From Malacoraja senta (lineage: Eukaryota): DNA of 64,000 nt. The notes under the pieces were generated by a model. It was not told the DNA's origin and made no database searches. It saw nothing but the letters and a program-made list of their open reading frames with translations. The stretch spans positions 2,296,001 through 2,360,000 of the forward strand of contig CM075993.1 in the NCBI GenBank assembly GCA_038087875.1, read 5' to 3'. The position numbers and the translations under genes were made by a program. Every line of letters starts with the position of its first letter. Positions within the stretch are counted from its first letter, which is position 1. Positions 15,637 through 44,270 of the stretch are shown here, piece after piece.

Positions 15637-15697
15637 CTCCATATGGAGTCACATCTTGTCCAATGAAGGCAGGTAGCCACTCGTAGTATAGGATACG
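15637..15697 (-). CDS. DUOX: DUOX coding exon 7: RILYYEWLPAFIGQDVTPYG
   Basis: YEWLP motif; 61 nt; AG/GT; phases fit neighbouring exons. Confidence 0.95.
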
Positions 15698-16162
15698 CTG
15701 GAAGATTAATGGAAAGTGTCAACAAAGTTACAACATAATCCCACGCCTCAACCTTCAATGCGGGCTATTTATTGATGGAAGAGATACGAGTATAATTCGA
15801 GCTTGCGATCAACTATCTTTACTAGGGAATTATTCCAAGCGTACGTGATCATATCGCAGCAGAGTTCGCATGTCGAAAGTGTATCCAGCTGCTCACCTCA
15901 GGAGGATTGTGCTTCCTCCCTGGTTCATGCTCAGCCTAGTAGTGTAGGAAGGAACTGCAGATGCTGGTTTACATCAAAGATAGACACAATATGCTGAAGT
16001 AACTCAGGGGGACTGGAAGCATCTCTGGAGAGAAGGAATGGGTATTCCTTTCCCTTATCCTTATTCCTTTTCTCCAGAGATGCTGCCTGACCCGCTGAGT
16101 TACTCCAGCATTTCGTGGAGAAGTTCCTCCTCACCTCCTTTCGTAAAGAGCACCCTGGAGGT

Positions 16163-16317
16163 CTTCTTCTTCTTCTTCTTCTTCTTCTTCTTCGTGCGTA
16201 CGGCGTGCACAGGCTACAGCTGTCGGTCAACTTCTTCTATTTGATCTTATGCACGCTGGGTTGATTGCATTCGTCGAAACAGGGCTGACCACGTGAAGGT
16301 TGCAATCTCCCACCCCA
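16163..16317 (-). mobile_element. Short non-autonomous retroelement with ribozyme head and (GAA)n tail
   Basis: About 10 GAA units at the 3' end; CTGGAGGT duplicated at 16155-16162 and 16318-16325. Confidence 0.7.
16263..16316 (-). ncRNA. Putative HDV-like (CPEB3-type) self-cleaving ribozyme, 54 nt
   Basis: GGGGUGG GA GAUUGCA ACC UUCACGU GGU CAGCCCU GU UUCG A CGAA UGCAAUC. P1 is 6/7 paired with G1-U, P2 7/7, P3 3/3, L3 UUCACGU, J4/2 CGAA. Confidence 0.75.
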
Positions 16318-19300
16318 CTGGAGGTTATGTTAGTGGAGACAGATGCACTTTTGAAAGCTCGGGGAAGTGAAGGCTATTTGGAACCGGCAGAGCAAAGGTG
16401 CGGCGGCCAGTGTCAGACCATCCATGATCATGTTGAGGGGCCAGGTGGAATATTCCTGCTCCTACTTTCATGTGTTCTTTCTTTATGACTCATTCTTCAT
16501 GACAAAATAGGAAGCCATCATCCACCTAAATTGCATTTTTATAACCAATCAAACGGGTGCGCAACCCTCACTCAAGTGATCCCCGCTGGTATTAATAACC
16601 TTAACCACCAGTAAATGTAGAAACAGGGAACTTGGCCAAGTTAATGGATATTTTTAAGGCAGAGATTGACTGATTATTGATTAGTACGGGTGTCAGCGGT
16701 TATGGGGAGAAGGCAGGAGAATGGGGTTGGGTGGGCGAGATAGATCAGCCATGAATGAATGGCGGAGTAGACTTGATGGCCCGAATGGCCTAATTCTGCT
16801 CCTATAACTAATGAACTGCAGATGCTGGTTTACCAAGGAAAGACACAAAATGCTTGGAGTAACTCAGCGGATCAGGCAGCTTCCGTGGAGAACAGGGAGA
16901 GGTGATGTTTTGGGTCTGGACACTTCTTCAGACTTACGCTAGAAGAAGATCAGTCTTCCATGGTAAGGTCCCAACCCGAAACGTCACACATTCTCCAGAG
17001 ATGTTGCCTGACCCGATACTTTGCTTCAGCATTTTGTGTCCACCCATTGCACAATTACTCATGCTTTTACAGTATAAAGAATAATTAAAAGGTCTAAAAT
17101 GATTTCAGTGCCATTTAGAGAAGCATTTAAACTTCAGTCTTGTTTTGGAGTTGCCCAACAGGTTAAGTGGGTTTGACTCAAAGGATATTTCAGTTCCAAG
17201 CCTGAGGTCTTTCACCATCAATCTCAGATTTCTCGTCATGCTCTTTTACTATTCAAAGCAGTTCCAGCTTTCTTATTCAGTGATCCATGATTTAATTGCC
17301 TCTCACTCTGTGTCTCGCTTTATAAATGCAACTCGTATTCCAACTGAATAATTTGCCATTGTGTGGAAAGTCGTGAGACAGTGGTCTCGTAGTTCGGCAT
17401 TGTTGGAGCTGAGGATTTTATTATTTCGCTCCAAGTTTCGAAATCCCTTTCTCCTTTTTGTTCACTGCCTGGACTCTAGCTGGTTCCTTGACAATTGGTC
17501 CTTGTCCCTCAAAAGACTGGGCGGTGCGTGATGAGAAAGCCAATGTGAAGAGCTCTCAAATCTCACAAAATCCAAACAGTTCGGTAAAACTGTAACGCAT
17601 GAGTCCTAGCGTGCATGAATCAATGAAGGAAGATTCTTGGCCCATCATGCTTGCTCTTTCAACAGACAAATGAATTGGCTTTTCTCCCTTGATCATTTAC
17701 CAAACCTCCACACTATTTTCTCTACGTAGTTAAGGTTGTTTAGTTTAGTTTGGTTTAGAGATACAGTCCCTTCGGCCCACCAGATCCTCGCTGACCAGCG
17801 ATCCCTGCACATTAGCACTATCCTACACACACTAGGGCCAATTTTTTTCATTTACCAAGCCAATTAACCTACAAACCTGTACGTCTTGAGAGTGTGGGAG
17901 GAAACGGAAGATCTTGGAGAAAACCCACGCAGGTCAGGGGGAGAACGTACAAACTCCGTACAGACAGCGCCGGGATCGAACCCGGGTCTCCGGCGCTGCA
18001 TTCACTGTAAGGCAGCAACTCTACCGCTGCGCCATAGCGCCGCCATGTAGCTTATTAATCCATTGTTGGAATATGGTCACTGCAAGTGTGCTTATGATGG
18101 TTACTGCTTCATTGTTAAGGTTGCTTCTGAATCTGTATTAATAAACCAGTCAGATAGAGAAGTAAAACTCATAACCTCTCATGGACCAAACAAATGGGTG
18201 GCACGGTGGCATAGCAGTCCCACAGTGTCATTGACCTGGGTTCCATCGTGACCTTCGGTGCAATCAGCACTGTTCTCCTTGTGACCACATGGGATTTCTA
18301 CGGGTATTCTGATCTCCTCCCACATGGCAAAGACATGGCGCTTGGTATGTTAACTGGCCTCTGTAAATTGCTGCTGATGGGGCGGTGGGACTGATGGGAT
18401 TGCCCCCCTGTGAACTGGCATGGTCCCAAAGGGCAGAATGGCCTCCTCCTGTGTTACAACGTAGAACAGTACAGCACAAGAACACGCCCGTAAGCCGGCA
18501 ATATCTATGCCGAACTTGAGGCCAAACCCATCACCCATCTACCTGCATATAACCCATATCCCTCCATTCCTTTTATATCCGTATCCGTATCCATGTTTTA
18601 CGATAAATACAGATCTATATTGATCTCACTGGCAGCATTCCATAACCTTATGCCAAATATTTATACAATTGTATCATGTATCAATAGTTTTACTTCAACC
18701 AATCCGTGTGACATAGTATACCTTACTCTGCCAAATCTTTCCTCACCCTCTTACAATTTGAAATTAATATGTCACATTTATTGGCTTATTTCCAAATCAA
18801 AACATCTCACAATACCACAATGGCGCAGCGGTAGAGTTGCTGCCTCACAGCGCCAGAGACCCAGGTTCAATCCTGACAATGGGTGCTGTCTGTACGGAGT
18901 TTGTATGTTCTCCCTGTGACCGTGTGGGTTTTCTCTGGGTGCTCCGGTTTCCTCCCACATCCCAATGATGTGCAGGGTGTAGGTTATTTGGCTTCTGTAA
19001 ATTGCCCCCAGTGTGTAGGTTGCTAAACTGGGATAGCATAGAACTAGTACACATGTGGTTGTTGGTCGGTGTGGACTCGGTGGGCTAAAGGGCTTATTTC
19101 CCAGCTGTATCTCTAAACCACACTAAACTAAGTATCATAGATGTTCATCAGTACATATTGACATGAAATGTCAACTCTCCATGTTCTCCAGGGATGCTGC
19201 CTGACCTGCTGAGTTACTCCAGCACTTTGCATCTATTTTTGTAAACCAGCATCTACAGTTCCTGGTTTCTTCACAATATGTAACGTTTTTCTACAATTTC

Positions 19301-19734
19301 TTTCTGAATTACAAAATCGAAGGTAGACAGAAATGCTGGAGAAACTCAGCGGGTGAGGCAGCATCTATGGAGCGAAGGAATAGGTGACGTTTCGCCCGCT
19401 GAGTTTCTCCAGCATTTTTGTCTACTCTCAATTACTTTAATATGTTTTGTGCAATGAGTTTCTCAGAACTGGGAAGGTGCAAAAAATAAAACGCTGCCAT
19501 TTTGCGGATAAAATATCCTTACTGCTGTGCTCTGAAGCCATAATTACAAAATCAATTACAAAAGACCCTCACATCAGTCCGAAGAAGGGTTTTCAGCCCG
19601 AAACGTTGCCTATTACCTTCTCTCCATAGATGCTGCCTTACCCGTTGAGTTTCTCCAGCATTTCTGTCTACCTTCGATTTTCCAGCATCTACAGTTCCTT
19701 CTTAAACACTACAAAATCAATATTCTTTTGTGTT

Positions 19735-20090
19735 TCATAGATACATAGATACATAGAAAATAGGTGCAGGAGTAGGCCATTCGGCCCTTCGAGCCTGCAC
19801 CGCCATTCAATACGATCATGGCTGATCATCCAACTCAGTATCCCGTACCTGCCTTCTCTCCATACCCCCTGATCCCTTTAGCCACAAGGGCCACATCTAA
19901 CTCCCTCTTAAATATAGCCAATGAACTGGCCTCAACTACCCTCTGTGGCAGAGAGTTCCAGAGATTCACCACTCTCTGTGTGAAAAAGTTTTTCCTCATC
20001 TCGGTCTTAAAGGATTTCCCCCTTATCCTTAAGCTGTGACCCCTTGTCCTGGACTTCCCCAACATCGGGAACAATCTTCCTGCATCTAGC
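19735..20090 (-). mobile_element. 5'-truncated CR1 of the same young subfamily as the full-length copy
   Basis: Translation identical to the C-terminus of ORF 42531-44270; same octamer tail. Confidence 0.92.
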
Positions 20091-20859
20091 ATCTGCCTTC
20101 ATCCATTTGTGTTTGAATTTGAAGCTTCCGGAAAACGTAACATGGAAACGCAAGGATAGGTGATATGCCTAATCCTCTACCCATTCATTTTTGCAATCCA
20201 ATGCCCACACCTCTCTTATAGACACAACAAGCTGTAGTAACTCAGCCGGTTGGACTGCATCTCTGGAGAAAAGGTGATGTTTTAGGTCAAGGAAATTCTC
20301 AGTAATTGAATATTTACTCCACTCCCAGGTTGAGAATTCTAAAAATCCACAGCCCTCTAAATAAACAAATTCTTCCTCACCTAGGTATTAAAGGGCCAGC
20401 TCCCTATCCCTAGTTTGTGCTCCATAGTTTCAAGTCTCCAGGCTGTAGCAAGCGGCTTCATGAGGTATATCCCGCTAGACCACTTACTACTGGTGTAAAT
20501 CACCTCTCATTCTTCTTCATTACATTGAGTTGCACACAGCTGATCTCATTCATTCTCTTTTCATAGTTCAACACTCATCCCAAGAAACAAATAACAAAGC
20601 CTTTGCTGGTCTGAGTTTTATATCCTACAAAAAAAAGACAAAATGCTGGAGTAACTCCGCGGTTCTGGCAACATTTCTGGAGAACATGGATCGGTGACCT
20701 TATCTATGCCCCCCGCGATCTTATAAACCTCTATAAGGTCACCTATCCGCCTCCGCTGCTCCAGGGAATAAAGATCCAGCATGCCCGACCTCAAGACAAA
20801 CCCTCCAGCACCAGTAACATCCTTGTAAATCTTTTTTTGCACCTTTTCAAGTTTAATGA

Positions 20860-21118
20860 CCTTTGCGGTTGCAGCTCCTAGACTGTGGAACAGCATCCCT
20901 CTTCCCATCAGAACTGCCCCCTCCATCGACTCTTTTAAGTCGAGACTTAAAACTCATCATTACTCTCAAGCCTTTCTTGACGTCCTCTGAGGGAGGGCTA
21001 CATGTATGTATTTATGTATGTACTTAATCTATGAACCACTGTTGTATAACGTTAGTAACTCCACCAATGTTTTTTAAATGTGCTATAGAAATAAAAGTGA
21101 CTTGACTTGACTTGACTT
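20860..21118 (+). mobile_element. L2-clade LINE 3' end (shorter copy ~23400-23578)
   Basis: FAVAAPRLWNSIPLPIRTAPSIDSFKSRLKTH translation and (TTGAC)n tail. Confidence 0.8.
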
Positions 21119-22273
21119 TAAACTGATTAGCTCATCTATGAGTAGGAAGGAACTGCAGATGCTGGTTTAAATTGAAAATAGACACAAAATGCTGGAGTAT
21201 CTCAGCGGGACAGGCAGCATCTCTGGAGAGAAGGAATGGGTGAAGAAGGGTCTCGACCCAAAACGTCACCCATTCCTTCTCTCCAGAGATGCTGCCTCAC
21301 CCGCTGAGTTACTCCAGCATTTTGTGACTACCTTCGATTTAAACCAGCATCTGCAGTTCTTTCTTACAAAATCTGATTTCTGTGTAATGTTAAATCCTAT
21401 ACCTAATGTTAATCTCATTCACTCAAAGTTCGAACATAGAACATGGAGCCACGCAGCACAGAAACAGGTCTTTGGGCACACAGGGAACATGATGCCAAGT
21501 TAAACTAATTCTCTCTGTCTGCACATGATCCATATCCACACCATTCCCTGCATATCCATGTGCCAAAAAGCCCATGAAACACCACTATCATATGTTCCTG
21601 GCAGCAAGTTGTACAAATTCTCAAAACAAAGTGAAGCAAAGATGTTCGGACTCAAAGTCTGAAATTCAATGAACGTTGTAGATCCCAAATGTGAATTGGG
21701 TAGATAAAGTTTACAGATATGTTCGGTCTGACTGGACATCAACCTGGTCTAAATTGTATAAAATGTTAAAATCCTTGACAAATGAAAAGCTCCACATTGA
21801 AAGATGGTTGATAGTAGAAAGTAAGTACCAGATGAGATAGTTAAGGCAGGTACTATAACAGTGTTTAAAAAACACTTGGACAGGTATATGGATAGGAAAG
21901 GTTTAGAGGGACATGGGCCAAACGTGGGCAAATGGGCCAAGTTTAGATGGTGGGTATGGACAAGTTGGGCCGAAATACCTGTTTACTCCGTGTATGACTA
22001 TGATATCTGTGTAGCTGTAAATGGTTAAATGATAAACACTGTAAACATGGATGCTAAAACGGTACTAATGCATGGGATCTCGATTGACAATATGTCAGAT
22101 ACAATATGACAACCGAATAACAATATGTCAGGTCTGAAGCAGAATCCTGACCTGAAACGCATCCTTTTTCTCCAGAGATACTCCAGCACTTTGTGTCTGT
22201 CTTTGGCAGATGCCACATTCAGGGAACGATCTGAGCGAAGCTCAGGAAGGCGAGCTCCTTGGTTTATAATTAC

Positions 22274-22440
22274 CTGGAAGGTTCCAATCACCATTTTCCT
22301 TGCATTCTGGAACAACTCTTCATCTGTCCTCGAGAGGTTCTGGCCTTTGAGTTGCGACGCTAGGTAATTGTGGTATCGGAACCAGATGATGTTTTGAGCT
22401 CTGAGGAAGGGACTCTCGTTTGCTTTTGCGTTTCCAAAAT
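22274..22440 (-). CDS. DUOX: DUOX coding exon 6: FGNAKANESPFL...WFRYHN...DEELFQNARKMVIGTFQ
   Basis: WFRYHN and DEELFQ.AR motifs; 167 nt; AG/GT. Confidence 0.97.
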
Positions 22441-40013: not shown

Positions 40014-40327
40014 TGTATTGTAGCAGTTTGTTTTGTATTGTAGCAGTTTGTTTTGTATTGTAGCAGTTTGTTTTGTATTGTAGCAGTTTGTTTTGTATTG
40101 TAGCAGTTTGTTTTGTATTGTAGCAGTTTGTTTTGTATTGTAGCAGTTTGTTTTGTATTGTAGCAGTTTGTTTTGTATTGTAGCAGTTTGTTTTGTATTG
40201 TAGCAGTTTGTTTTGTATTGTAGCAGTTTGTTTTGTATTGTAGCAGTTTGTTTTGTATTGTAGCAGTTTGTTTTGTATTGTAGCAGTTTGTTTTGTATTC
40301 TATCAGTTTGTTTTATATTCTATCCAG
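40014..40327 (+). repeat. 20-bp minisatellite TGTATTGTAGCAGTTTGTTT in CR1 5' UTR
   Basis: 14 perfect units (40014-40293) plus 2 degenerate ones. Confidence 0.95.
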
Positions 40328-40339
40328 GGTAAGGGGAGT

Positions 40340-41275
40340 ATGAGGGCCAGGGCAGTTTACTGTTCTGGATGTCAGATGTGGGAAGTCATGGAGTCTGTTA
40401 GCCCTCCAGACGTCCACATCTGCGCCAGGTGTATCGAGATGGGGCTCCTAAGGGACCGTGTTAGGAACCTGGAGCAGCAGCTCGATGACCTCCGTCTGGT
40501 CAGGGAGAGCGAGGAAGTCATTGAGAGGAGTTACAGGGATGTGGTCACTCCAACACCACAGGAGGCAGGCAAGTGGATCACGGTTGGGAGAGGCAAGGGG
40601 CACAGGCAGGGACTAGAGAGTACCCCGGTGGCTGTACACCTTGACAATAAGTACTCCTGTTTGAGCACTGTTGGGGTGGACAGCCTACCTGGGGGTAGCG
40701 ACAGCGGCCGGGCCTCCGGTATAGAGACCGGTCCTGTTGCTCAGAAGGGTAAGGAAAAGAAGAGGAGGGCAATATTAATAGGGGACTCTATAGTTAGGGG
40801 GTCAGACAGGCGATTCTGTGGACGCAGTCGGGAGACCCGGATGGTAGTTTGCCTCCCTGGTGCCAGGGTCTGTGATGTGTCCCAACGTGTCCAAGACATC
40901 CTGAAGGGGCAGGGAGAGGAGCCCGAGGTCGTGATACATATAGGTACCAATGACATAGGTAAAAAAAGAGAAGAGGTCCTGAAAGGAGAATTTAGGGAGT
41001 TAGGAGGGGAGTTAAAGAGAAGGACAGCAAAGGTAACAATCTCGGGATTACTGCCTGTACCACGCGACAGTGAGAGTAGGAATGGAGCGAGGTGGAGGAT
41101 AAATGCGTGGCTGAAGGACTGGTGCAGAAGGCAGGGATTCAAATTTCTGGATCATTGGGACTTCTTTTGTGGAAGGTTCGACCTGTACAAAAAGGATGGG
41201 TTGCACTTGAACCTGAGGGGGACCGATATCCTGGTGGGGAGATCTGCAAAGGCTACTGGGGAGACTTTAAACTAG
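40340..41275 (+). CDS. CR1 ORF1: Cys-pair zinc finger, coiled coil, SGNH esterase domain
   Basis: CSGC...CARC; RVRNLEQQLDDL; GDS, GTND and DGLH motifs; 311 aa open from ATG 40340. Confidence 0.88.
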   Translation: MRARAVYCSGCQMWEVMESVSPPDVHICARCIEMGLLRDRVRNLEQQLDDLRLVRESEEVIERSYRDVVTPTPQEAGKWITVGRGKGHRQGLESTPVAVHLDNKYSCLSTVGVDSLPGGSDSGRASGIETGPVAQKGKEKKRRAILIGDSIVRGSDRRFCGRSRETRMVVCLPGARVCDVSQRVQDILKGQGEEPEVVIHIGTNDIGKKREEVLKGEFRELGGELKRRTAKVTISGLLPVPRDSESRNGARWRINAWLKDWCRRQGFKFLDHWDFFCGRFDLYKKDGLHLNLRGTDILVGRSAKATGETLN

Positions 41276-41579
41276 AATGGTTGGGGGGAGGGACTCAAAT
41301 AGAGAATGCTATTAGACAGTGTGTGAGGCAGGAGGCAGAGAAGGAAAGCACTCAGACCCAACATGTAGGGGGGAAAGAAGAAAACAATAATAAACAGAGA
41401 ATAAGAGGTGGTGGGGTTCTTAAATGGGTGAGCAGAGAAACAGAGGGGTGTAAAATGCGGGCGGAAGCAATAGGTAGCAAGGTGAAAGGTAAAAGTGGCA
41501 GGCAGACAAATCCAGGACAAAAATCAAAAAGAGCCACTTTTCAACATAATTGTATAAGGGGTAAGAGCGTTGTAAAAAC

Positions 41580-44270
41580 AAGTCTGAAGGCTTTGTGTCT
41601 CAATGCAAGGAGCATTCGTAATAAGGTGGATGAGAGAAAGGAAAAGGAGGTGGGGTGGCGTTGCTGGTTAGAGAGGAGATTAACGCAGTGGAAAGGAAGG
41701 ACATTAGCTTGGAGGATGTGGAATCGGTATGGGTAGAGCTGCGAAACACTAAGGGGCAGAAAACGCTGGTGGGCGTTGTGTACAGGCCACCTAGCAGTAG
41801 TAGTGAAGTTGGGGATGGCATCAAACAGGAAATTAGAAATGCGTGCAACAAAGGCAAAACAGTTATAATGGGTGACTTCAATCTACATATAGATTGGGTG
41901 AATCAAATTGGCAGGGGTGCTGAGGAAGAGGATTTCTTGGAATGTATGAGGGATAGTTATCTAAACCAACATGTAGAGGAACCAACGAGAGAGCAGGCTA
42001 TTCTAGACTGGGTATTGAGTAATGAGGAAGGGTTAGTTAGCAGACTTGTTGTGCGTGCCCCCTTGGGCAAGAGTGATCATAATATGGTTGAGTTCTTCAT
42101 TAGGATGGAGAGTGACATTGTTAATTCAGAAACAACGGTTCTGAACTTAAAGAAAGGTAACTTTGAGGGTATGAGACATGAATTGGCCAAGATTGACTGG
42201 CAATTAGTTCTAAAAGGGTTGACGGTGGATATGCAATGGAAGGCATTTAAAGACTGCATGGATGAACTACAAAAATTGTTCATCCCAGTTTGGCAAAAGA
42301 ATAAATCAAGGAAGGTAGTGCATCCGTGGATAACAAGGGAAATCAGGGATAGTATCAAAGCAAAAGATGATGCGTACAAATTAGCCAGAAAAAGCAGCAT
42401 ACCAGAGGACTGGGAGAAATTCAGAGACCAGCAGAGGAGGACAAAGGGCTTAATTAGGAAAGGGAAAATAGATTAGGAAAGGAAACTGGCAGGGAACATA
42501 AAAACTGACTGCAAAAGTTTTTATAGATATGTGAAGAGAAAGAGATTAGTTAAATCAAATGTAGGTCCCTTGCAGTCAGAAACAGGTGAATTGATCATGG
42601 GGAACAAGGATATGGCAGACCAATTGAATAACTACTTTGGTTCCGTCTTCACTAAGGAAGACATAAATAATCTGCCGGAAATAGCAGGGGGCCGCGGGTC
42701 AAAGGAGATGGAGGAACTGAGTGAAATCCAGGTTAGTCGGGAAGTGGTGTTGGGTAAATTGAATGGATTAAAGGCCGATAAATCACCAGGGCCAGATAGG
42801 CTGCATCCCAGAGTACTTAAGGAAGTAGCTCCAGAAATAGTGGATGCATTAGTGATAATTTTTCAAAACTCTTTAGATTCTGGAGTAGTTCCTGAGGATT
42901 GGAGGGTAGCAAACGTAACCCCACTTTTTAAGAAGGGAGGGAGAGAGAAAACGGGGAATTACAGACCAGTTAGTCTAACATCGGTAGTGGGGAAACTGCT
43001 AGAGTCAGTTATTAAAGATGGGATAGCAGCACATTTGGAAAGTGGTGAAATCATTGGACAAAGTCAGCATGGATTTACGAAAGGTAAATCGTGTCTGACG
43101 AATCTTATAGAATTTTTCGAGGATGTAACTAGTAGAGTGGATAGGGGAGAACCAGTGGATGTGTTGTATCTGGACTTTCAGAAGGCTTTCGACAAGGTAC
43201 CACATAAGAGATTAGGATACAAACTTAAATCACACGGTATTGGGGGTTCAGTATTGATGTGGATAGAGAACTGGCTGGCAAACAGGAAGCAAAGAGTAGG
43301 AGTAAACGGGTCCTTTTCACAATGGCAGGCAGTGACTAGTGGGGTACCACAAGGCTCAGTGCTGGGACCCCAGCTATTTACAATTTATATTAATGATCTG
43401 GACGAGGGAATTGAAAGCAACATCTCCAAGTTTGCGGATGACACTAAGCTGGGGGGCAGTGTTAGCTGTGAGGAGGATGCTAGGAGACTGCAAGGTGACT
43501 TGGATAGGCTGGGTGAGTGGGCAAATGTTTGGCAGATGCAGTATAATGTGGATAAATGTGAGGTTATCCACTTTGGTAGCAAAAACGGGAAGGCAGACTA
43601 TTATCTAAATGGTGGCCGATTAGGAAATGGGGAGATGCAGCGAGACCTGGGTGTCATGGTACACCAGTCATTGAAAGTAGGCATGCAGGTGCAGCAGGCA
43701 GTGAAGAAAGCGAATGGTATGTTGGCCTTCATAGCAAGAGGATTTGAGTATAGGAGCAGTGAGGTTCTACTGCAGTTGTACAGGGTCTTGGTGAGACCAC
43801 ACCTGGAGTATTGCGTACAGTTTTGGTCTCCAAATCTGAGGAAGGACATTATAGCCATAGAGGGAGTGCAGAGAAGGTTCACCAGACTGATTCCTGGGAT
43901 GTCAGGACTTTCATATGAAGAAAGACTGGATAGACTTGGCTTATACTCGCTAGAATTTAGGAGATTGAGAGGGGATCTTATAGAAACGTACAAGATTCTT
44001 ATGGGGTTGGACAGGCTAGATGCAGGAAGATTGTTCCCGATGTTGGGGAAGTCCAGGACAAGGGGTCACAGCTTAAGGATAAGGGGAAAATCCTTTAAGA
44101 CCGAGATGAGGAAAAACTTTTTCACACAGAGAGTGGTGAATCTCTGGAACTCTCTGCCACAGAGGGTAGTTGAGGCCAGTTCATTGGCTATATTTAAGAG
44201 GGAATTAGATGTGGCCCTTGTGGCTAAAGGGATCAGGGGGTATGGAGAGAAGGCAGGTACGGGATACTGA
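41580..44270 (+). pseudogene. CR1 ORF2 (APE + RT), disrupted; start approximate
   Basis: LNARS then a frameshifting deletion near 41634; YRPP, GDFN, SDH; in-frame TAG at 42474-42476; RT motifs YLDFQKAFD, GVPQGSVLGP, FADD intact. Confidence 0.9.

What the first reader, a model, noticed from the sequence alone, without database searches (positions are those of the whole stretch)
16155..16325. Ribozyme-headed SINE: ~155-bp retroelement starting with a compact CPEB3-like HDV ribozyme
Seen: minus strand 16316-16263 folds into the HDV nested double pseudoknot. P1 is GGGGUGG/CAGCCCU with a G1-U wobble and one G.A mismatch, P2 GAUUGCA/UGCAAUC, P3 ACC/GGU, loop UUCACGU, then GU, a vestigial UUCG P4 and CGAA holding the putative catalytic C. 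G1 lies 1 nt inside an 8-bp target duplication (CTGGAGGT). The rest of the element is a GCGUGCA/UGCACGC stem and a (GAA)n tail, with no tRNA A/B boxes and no ORF. Known: L3 UUCACGU and J4/2 CGAA are the same as in the mammalian CPEB3 ribozyme, and HDV-like ribozymes form the 5' ends of R2 and RTE elements. Inference: a promoterless non-autonomous family that cuts itself out of host transcripts and is copied by a (GAA)n-tailed LINE, probably RTE.
Basis: partly seen in the sequence, partly recalled or inferred. Interest (0 to 1): 0.85.

Follow-up and report, generated by a model that had tools for sequence, protein, structure and literature searches.

The report
Ribozyme-headed miniature Vingi retrotransposon
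This 154-base piece is one of over 5,000 copies of a jumping element made of just the two ends of a Vingi-type retrotransposon; it starts with a predicted self-cutting RNA, transcripts of the family begin at the predicted cut site, and the ribozymes of related Vingi elements are so like the mammalian CPEB3 ribozyme that they are its likely source.

Summary
Window 16316-16163 (-) is one copy of a family with 5,727 exact core matches. 27 of 28 copies found with a 3'-only query reach G1. Its parent is in the genome: a 3.1-kb endonuclease-RT LINE sharing nt 1-77 (92-94%) and the last 39 nt (up to 100%). The parent is Vingi-type, not RTE. So this is an internally deleted, non-autonomous LINE, like R2 SIDEs and NARTc. 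The 54-nt head is an HDV-type fold almost without P4; P1 and P3 covary across related families. In two single-cell runs 1,446 and 1,250 reads end at G1, their consensus being the template-switch oligo: a short RNA starts at the predicted cut. Cleavage itself is untested; an internal promoter is the main rival. Sister families score up to 64 bits on Rfam's CPEB3 model, and published gharial Vingi-2_Gav matches the CPEB3 consensus at 52 of 54 positions outside the P4 interior, pointing to a Vingi origin for that ribozyme.

The parts
16163..16316 (-). whole element (154 nt): internally deleted, non-autonomous Vingi-type retrotransposon, family A
16263..16316 (-). 54-nt HDV-type ribozyme fold; G1 = 16316
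16310..16316 (-). P1 5' strand (pairs with 16281-16287; G6 at 16311 faces A at 16286, a mismatch in this copy)
16301..16307 (-). P2 5' strand (pairs with 16263-16269)
16288..16300 (-). P3 and the 7-nt L3 loop (16297-16291)
16274..16280 (-). single-pair P1.1 partner and 5-nt remnant in place of P4
   Evidence: same length in the parent LINE
16270..16273 (-). J4/2 with the predicted catalytic C44 at 16273
   Evidence: C kept in 84 of 90 copies, next base in 48 of 90
16230..16316 (-). part taken from the parent LINE's 5' end (nt 1-87)
   Evidence: 86% over 87 nt to L367 and L361
16163..16230 (-). part taken from the parent LINE's 3' end (last codons, 3' UTR, tail)
   Evidence: 76-88% to 12 of 12 parent 3' ends; family majority up to 39/39
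16250..16256 (-). 5' arm of the end-joining stem
16203..16209 (-). 3' arm of the end-joining stem
16163..16193 (-). (GAA)n tail
16155..16162 (+). target-site duplication, tail side
16318..16325 (+). target-site duplication, head side
16317..16317 (-). one base between duplication and G1, not in the target; likely added by the reverse transcriptase
   Evidence: inference
15644..22438 (-). host context: two successive exons of an animal haem peroxidase domain gene (22265-22438 and about 15644-15703); the element lies in the intron between them, in sense orientation

Best explanation
The element is an internally deleted copy of a Vingi-type LINE that keeps only the LINE's first ~87 and last ~45 bases plus tail, and it likely frees itself from longer host transcripts with a minimal HDV-type ribozyme before being copied by Vingi protein supplied in trans. 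Steps: (1) shown: it shares both ends with a 3.1-kb endonuclease-RT LINE in the same genome and has no ORF. (2) Inferred: a host or read-through transcript crosses a sense copy. (3) Predicted: the first 54 nt fold into the nested double pseudoknot and C44 cuts just before G1; shown only indirectly, by covariation, by genomic 5' ends at G1 and by RNA reads starting at G1. (4) Inferred: the segment after the ribozyme pairs with the segment before the 3' ACG motif, bringing the two ends together as in the full LINE; this pairing covaries across families. (5) Inferred from the 7-17-bp duplications and tail: target-primed reverse transcription from the (GAA)n end by the parent's protein; the short template is nearly always copied to G1. 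The window copy is an older one (7.4% from the majority) with a P1 mismatch and may cut slowly or not at all.
For: Parent: L251 head = family nt 9-77 at 91% directly before an endonuclease-RT frame; 5 of 8 parent 5' ends carry nt 10-77 or more at 90-94%, a sixth nt 43-77, and 12 of 12 parent 3' ends carry the family tail. Copies: 5,727 exact 17-mer matches, reversed control 0; 27 of 28 3'-selected copies reach G1; duplication ends within 2 nt of G1 in 64 of 83. Fold: on a sequence-only alignment of 8 heads, 97.5% of P1+P3 cells pair, 18 cells change on both sides, 0 of 500 shuffles as high, slid controls 42-61%; J4/2 is C-N-A-A with N = G, T, C or A across families. RNA: 1,446 and 1,250 reads with loose ends exactly behind G1, median 31 nt, consensus equal to the template-switch oligo printed in PMC9338959 including all three terminal bases; sense reads about 3:1. 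End pairing: own 5'/3' pairs beat 199,999 of 200,000 permutations over 12 families and all but 30 of 362,880 over 9 LINE families. Known analogues: R2 SIDEs (PMC3414825, abstract), NARTc/SIDER (PMC4035085, passages); P4-less HDV ribozymes are active (PMC10879173, passages).
Against: No cleavage assay. The family head is not recognised by Rfam (best 14.4 bits against a 44-bit cut-off; nothing). Template switching does not tell a cleaved end from a transcription start, and the G run blurs the register. In two bulk poly(A) runs the reads crossing G1 go on into mixed flanks (786 and 619 reads, agreement about 0.4), so many copies sit uncut or antisense in host RNAs. The runs are from 'organism A', which may be a relative, and L004's own flanks had no depth. 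Only 43 of 90 copies keep every pair and C44. No intact parent ORF was seen. In the end-pairing test the own partner was best in only 6 of 12 rows; of two families found later one passed (22 of 1,000 shuffles as good) and one did not (172 of 1,000); six bases of family A's stem are a palindrome.
Confidence: 0.8

Rival explanations
1. Same element, but the 5' end is set by an internal promoter in the head (as Pr77 of L1Tc), and the pseudoknot mainly shields the RNA or binds the LINE protein; cleavage is secondary.
For: Pr77 is both promoter and ribozyme in the related L1Tc/ingi clade (PMC4035085, passages). An HDV fold helps R2 templates through structure, not necessarily activity (PMC11331408, passages). 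Reads starting at G1 fit a start site too.
Against: C44 and the two A's stay fixed while the base between varies, in this family and across families, which is the catalytic signature. The loose-end consensus shows no extra cap-derived G (that capped RNAs often give one is recalled, and a capped start at G2 would look the same).
Confidence: 0.14
2. The RNA evidence is a library artefact: the template-switch oligo invades at the GGGG run of longer transcripts, so no free short RNA exists, and the ribozyme acts only rarely.
For: The element starts with four G's and many copies have T before them (40 of 83), which resembles the oligo's 3' end. Consensus agreement is only 0.70 and 0.65.
Against: Invasion would use the element's own G's, but the consensus holds three further G's beyond G1. 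Genomic 5' ends agree independently.
Confidence: 0.1
3. The element is mobilised by an RTE-clade LINE.
For: An RTE family with a (GAA)n tail is present (772 candidates for DUF6451).
Against: No similarity beyond the GAA repeat to the RTE 3' ends in 20 loci; a Vingi-type LINE shares both ends; its RT region matches an Anolis protein of the Vingi-like group at E 2e-80 and the RTE at 4e-10. RTE 5' ends were not recovered, so an RTE ribozyme was not excluded, only made unnecessary.
Confidence: 0.02
4. A conventional Pol III SINE with a decayed tRNA-type head.
For: Short, multi-copy, microsatellite tail; a 2-mismatch B-box-like word at nt 38.
Against: No tRNA, 5S or 7SL match at the element down to E 10; no A or B box at 0-1 mismatches; the head is the LINE's own 5' end.
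Confidence: 0.01

Closest known systems
R2 SIDEs (Eickbush and Eickbush 2012, PMC3414825, abstract read)
   Same: 5' HDV-like ribozyme joined to the 3' end of the parent LINE; no ORF; moved in trans
   Different: rDNA-specific and rare; here dispersed, over 5,000 copies, APE-type Vingi parent, 54-nt ribozyme
NARTc, RIME, SIDER of the L1Tc/ingi clade (PMC4035085, passages)
   Same: short derivatives of the sister clade, headed by an HDV-like ribozyme; dispersed
   Different: trypanosomatids; 77-nt head with P4 and shown promoter activity; here a vertebrate-size genome, P4 almost gone, promoter untested
Non-autonomous Vingi derivatives (Vingi-1_EE deletions; SINE2-1_ACar, SINE2-1_AMi; Kojima 2018, PMC5786205, passages, section 23 and supplement passages)
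   Same: bipartite 5'+3' Vingi structure is already known
   Different: that paper lists six LINE clades with 5' ribozymes and Vingi is not among them; it does not read the Vingi 5' end as a ribozyme
Mammalian CPEB3 ribozyme (Rfam RF00622; PMC8233481, passages)
   Same: same L3, single-pair P1.1, G1-U wobble; sister families here score up to 64 bits (cut-off 35)
   Different: single-copy, intronic, full P4, said to be unknown outside mammals; family A itself has other P1-P3 sequences and does not score on the model
Minimal HDV-like and theta ribozymes (PMC10879173, passages)
   Same: no P4, about the same size
   Different: reported almost only from gut phages; here on an animal retrotransposon

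Membership tests
HDV-like ribozymes | nested P1/P2/P3 pseudoknot with 7-nt L3 and G1 wobble | tested here: met
HDV-like ribozymes | P1.1 pair and catalytic C in J4/2 (C-N-A-A) | tested here: met
   C22-G37; C44 in 84 of 90 copies
HDV-like ribozymes | Mg2+-dependent self-scission 5' of G1, lost on C-to-U | not testable with these tools
   indirect only: RNA 5' ends at G1
CPEB3 ribozyme family (RF00622) | score above the 35-bit gathering cut-off | tested here: not met
   family A not listed; other families in the genome do pass (39 of 60 matches)
Bipartite non-autonomous LINE (SIDE type) | 5' end shared with an autonomous-type parent | tested here: met
   92-94% over nt 1-77 to L367, L361, L366
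Bipartite non-autonomous LINE (SIDE type) | 3' end and tail shared with the same parent; coding region deleted | tested here: met
   12 of 12 parent 3' ends; L251 links head, ORF and start of the tail in one locus
Bipartite non-autonomous LINE (SIDE type) | independent insertions with target duplications | tested here: met
   duplications found for 54 of 56 (7-17 bp) and 76 of 83 copies
Vingi clade (parent LINE) | compact single-ORF element with APE and RT, no RNase H (PMC13708176, passages) | tested here: met
   about 3.1 kb; Pfam APE and RVT_1 only, no RNase H, in L251 pieces and in sister ORFs of 886-986 aa; L251's frame is broken
Vingi clade (parent LINE) | RT groups with named Vingi elements | tested here: inconclusive
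   no protein named Vingi was available; sister families group with Anolis P0059/P0133 apart from RTE and CR1 in a quick tree (support 89, L251 not included); L251 vs P0133 34%, E 2e-80
Vingi clade (parent LINE) | 5' end like that of a named Vingi | tested here: met
   Vingi-2_Gav 2-74 printed in the PMC5786205 supplement has the same head type as L088, L152, L051; family A's head is a more distant variant
RTE clade (partner) | shared 3' end with an RTE; DUF6451 in the parent | tested here: not met
tRNA-derived SINE (SINE2) | tRNA-like head with A and B boxes | tested here: not met

The most novel reading that the evidence does not exclude
HDV-type ribozymes are the standard 5' end of Vingi retrotransposons, and the mammalian CPEB3 ribozyme is a domesticated relic of one such Vingi (or Vingi-derived SINE) insertion. 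Family A shows the system at its minimum: a 54-nt P4-less ribozyme plus a 5'-3' end-joining stem, present in thousands of copies and released in vivo as a small RNA.
Probability: 0.7. Interest if true: 0.85.

Novelty: new variant of a known kind. Interest (0 to 1): 0.72.

Why it matters
It gives the CPEB3 ribozyme, described as not found outside mammals and lacking outgroups (PMC8233481), a likely origin and dozens of natural relatives to assay. It adds Vingi to the LINE clades with 5' ribozymes and defines the smallest cis-acting unit of a Vingi RNA (ribozyme, end-joining stem, 3' motif, tail), which bears on Vingi-based gene-insertion tools that use both UTRs (PMC13708176). Thousands of near-intact ribozyme copies, some in sense introns such as this one, could cut host pre-mRNAs, and they form a natural mutational scan.

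Tried and rejected
Phage collection: no match. Rfam: family A head not recognised. Minimum-free-energy folding cannot draw the pseudoknot and was not used as evidence. A pattern for a parent with a longer P4 gave 14 matches, all rearranged family A copies; the parent turned out to have the same short P4. The first nine LINE families examined were not the parent. RTE 5' ends were missing in both copies followed upstream. No RNA holder was listed on record in the run search (no evidence either way). Poly(A) loose ends at element nt 124, 128 and 131 may be internal oligo-dT priming on the GAA tail and were not used. An excess of G45 over C44 changes in the first 56 copies looked like selection but reflects subfamilies and the parent's T45. 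No flanking duplication was found for 7 of 7 loci of the other short heads in a strict exact search, although L044 shows one by eye. The careful tree did not finish. Ruminski 2011, Webb 2009, Webb and Luptak 2011, Kojima 2011 and one review were not held; Repbase, Dfam and patents could not be searched, and any of them may already hold the family, the Vingi ribozyme or the CPEB3 link.

Full report
Observation. The sequence at 16155-16325 is as described. On the minus strand G1 is 16316 and the fold runs to 16263, with the candidate catalytic C44 at 16273. A descriptor for the HDV pseudoknot finds this one site in the window and 1 site in 60 shuffles. Rfam does not recognise it: nothing at the element down to E 10, 14.4 bits to HDV-F-prausnitzii for a better copy (cut-off 44), nothing.

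A large family. A DNA search gave 688 candidates, 40 scored, 85-90% identical to the window copy. An exact 17-base core occurs 5,727 times, its reversed control 0 times; this count includes fragments and a few parent heads and misses copies mutated in the core. Of 60 loci from two searches, 4 duplicates were dropped; the 56 left are 3.3% from their majority, the window copy 7.4%. Of the 28 found with a 3'-half query, 27 reach G1. In the first 90 core matches on contig C1 (three pairs are segmental duplicates, kept), 83 have the 3' part, mean divergence is 5.5%, the target duplication ends within 2 nt of G1 in 64 of 83 (12 further off, 7 not found), C31 is majority (78 of 90), C44 is kept in 84 of 90 and G45 in 48 of 90, and 43 of 90 keep all 18 pairs tested plus C44 and the two A's.

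The parent. Searching the genome with Rfam's CPEB3 model gave 60 matches, 39 above the cut-off, best 64 bits. The best are the 5' ends of a 3.14-kb single-ORF LINE with APE and RT domains, no RNase H, and a (GAA)n tail. Its endonuclease found 150 matches; I fetched 60 regions around non-identical ones. They fall into at least eleven families; for ten of them a 5' end was seen that folds or partly folds as an HDV-type head. One, L251, begins with family A nt 9-77 at 91%, continues into an APE-RT frame broken by shifts and stops, and ends with the start of family A's tail before another repeat interrupts it. Two of the 90 core matches (L270, L313) are this LINE too. Its 3' coding end has 484 candidates and its 5' UTR 30, so the LINE is mostly 5'-truncated while the short element is not. 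All 12 3' ends fetched carry family A's tail (39 of 39 bases in L348); of 8 5' ends, 5 carry nt 10-77 or more at 90-94%, one nt 43-77, and two begin further in. Family A is thus the LINE's first ~87 nt joined to its last ~45 nt and tail.

Vingi, not RTE. An RTE family with a (GAA)n tail exists, so the tail alone does not decide; its 3' end shows no other likeness to family A in 20 loci. L251's RT region matches Anolis protein P0133 at 34% (E 2e-80) and the RTE at 26% (E 4e-10). In a quick tree of 32 rows the sister families group with Anolis, lancelet, sea-urchin and insect proteins, apart from RTE and CR1 (support 89, many partial rows, L251 absent). No protein was labelled Vingi. The label rests on the architecture given in PMC13708176 (passages) and on the supplement of PMC5786205 (passages), where Vingi-2_Gav (3,128 bp) is printed with the same kind of 5' end as L088, L152 and L051.

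The fold. In a sequence-only alignment of 8 heads (window, L004, parent, family B, four LINE families), P1 and P3 pair in 97.5% of 79 cells with 18 two-sided changes; 0 of 500 shuffles reach those two values or the covariation score, though 217 and 92 of 500 reach the pair and type counts; slid controls give 42-61%. Three of the 8 rows are close kin. P2 also changes in step between families, but its 3' strand was placed by pairing. The parent has U5-A32 where most copies have U5.G32, and CTAA where most have CGAA. Only 5 nt stand in place of P4, in the parent too; P4-less HDV ribozymes are active and were reported almost only from phages (PMC10879173, passages).

RNA. Four 2026 raw-read runs from 'organism A' (found by species label, possibly a relative; 1-5% of each read) were laid on L004, where G1 is 1643. 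In the single-cell runs 1,446 and 1,250 reads (of 3,760 and 3,552 laid) have loose ends directly behind 1643, median 31 nt, and their consensus is the reverse complement of the template-switch oligo listed in PMC9338959 (passage), all three terminal G's included. Agreement of 0.70 and 0.65 implies, by my rough arithmetic, a little over half of these reads. Sense reads lead about 3:1. So RNAs begin at G1. In the two bulk poly(A) runs the loose ends there are mixed flanks (786 and 619 reads), i.e. copies inside longer RNAs. These data do not separate cleavage from a start site.

End pairing. The 40 nt after each ribozyme pair with the 40 nt before the family's own tail better than with others' (means -20.3 and -13.2 kcal/mol; 1 of 200,000 permutations for 12 families, 30 of 362,880 for 9 LINEs; own partner best in 6 of 12 rows). 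The idea was formed by eye on these families. Of two families found afterwards, the parent passed (22 of 1,000 shuffles) and V10 did not (172 of 1,000), though it shows a 10-bp helix. I did not run a literature search on it.

CPEB3. The Rfam consensus printed matches Vingi-2_Gav at 38 of 40 positions up to the start of P4 and 14 of 14 from its end (counted by eye); alligator SINE2-1_AMi has the same 7-bp P4 arms; L046 here matches at 52 of 61. [quoted passage not shown] PMC5753468 (passages) lists a human Vingi relic, X12_LINE. Relatives of these LINE proteins occur in lancelet, urchins and insects, so the direction element-to-gene is the likelier. I did not examine any mammalian CPEB3 locus. 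Searches for 'Vingi' + 'ribozyme' (6 papers) and for CPEB3 with retrotransposon terms (listings only, top 25 where more) showed no paper making this link; PMC5786205 (section 23) lists six ribozyme-bearing clades without Vingi; PMC7761336 (passages) suggests domestication of such ribozymes in general terms. Key papers of the Luptak and Kojima groups were not held.

Context. The copy lies in sense orientation in an intron of an animal haem peroxidase domain gene (DUOX-like is my recalled label). With its P1 mismatch it probably cuts weakly. That the host is a cartilaginous fish is a guess from recalled repeats, not tested.

Verdict. Real; a new variant of a known kind (SIDE/NARTc-like, Vingi parent, minimal ribozyme). 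Identity as a deleted Vingi-type LINE is nearly certain; 5'-end formation by self-cleavage is likely (0.8); a Vingi origin of the CPEB3 ribozyme is likely (0.7) and is the most interesting part.

Noticed in passing
L059-L090 (23 of 32 loci by eye): A second short family (B, about 170 nt) with a P4-less CPEB3-type head, a 12-bp end-joining stem, an inner hairpin and a (GAA)n tail; many copies have one C too many in P1. Parent not sought.
   Followed up: partly
L042, L044, L046, L060, L063: Family C heads match the mammalian CPEB3 consensus closely, P4 included (L046 52 of 61); L044 is a ~270-nt bipartite element ending in a Vingi-type last exon-free coding stub and tail.
   Followed up: partly
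L051, L152, L188, L156, L160, L187, L174, L185, L179, L239: At least ten further Vingi-type LINE families, each with its own ribozyme variant (one- or two-pair P1.1, P4 from short to long); one ends in (TAAA)n rather than (GAA)n. Open frames of 940-1,014 aa exist in the youngest.
   Followed up: partly
L270, L313, L360, L367: Parent LINE copies in which the head is joined back to back to an inverted piece of the 3' coding region, as in twin priming.
   Followed up: no
L058, L170, L241: Tandem partial repeats of the ribozyme's 5' part at LINE 5' junctions, suggesting repeated template jumps at the end of reverse transcription.
   Followed up: no
PMC5786205 supplement, SINE2-1_AMi: Its '3' unknown' part reads as a short stem, ACACG and an A-rich tail, like the Vingi 3' ends here; its ribozyme copy has changes in L3 and P1.
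   Followed up: no
L004:1513-1520: Poly(A) loose ends at three fixed places just after the end-joining stem in single-cell reads; internal priming or true tailing of a trimmed RNA.
   Followed up: no
L004:1567: 206-272 reads per run leave L004 at the same place with one shared sequence: an abundant subfamily with a different junction region.
   Followed up: no
window 15941-16116 and many other places: A very abundant ~190-bp hairpin-forming repeat abuts the element; it gives sub-threshold miRNA matches in Rfam.
   Followed up: no
window 40244-44267 (+): A near full-length CR1-type LINE with ORF1 and ORF2 split by one stop at about 42474.
   Followed up: no
window 8715-32627 (-): Exons of an animal haem peroxidase domain gene, DUOX-like by recall; a second such gene lies 1.5 Mb away on the same contig.
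   Followed up: partly
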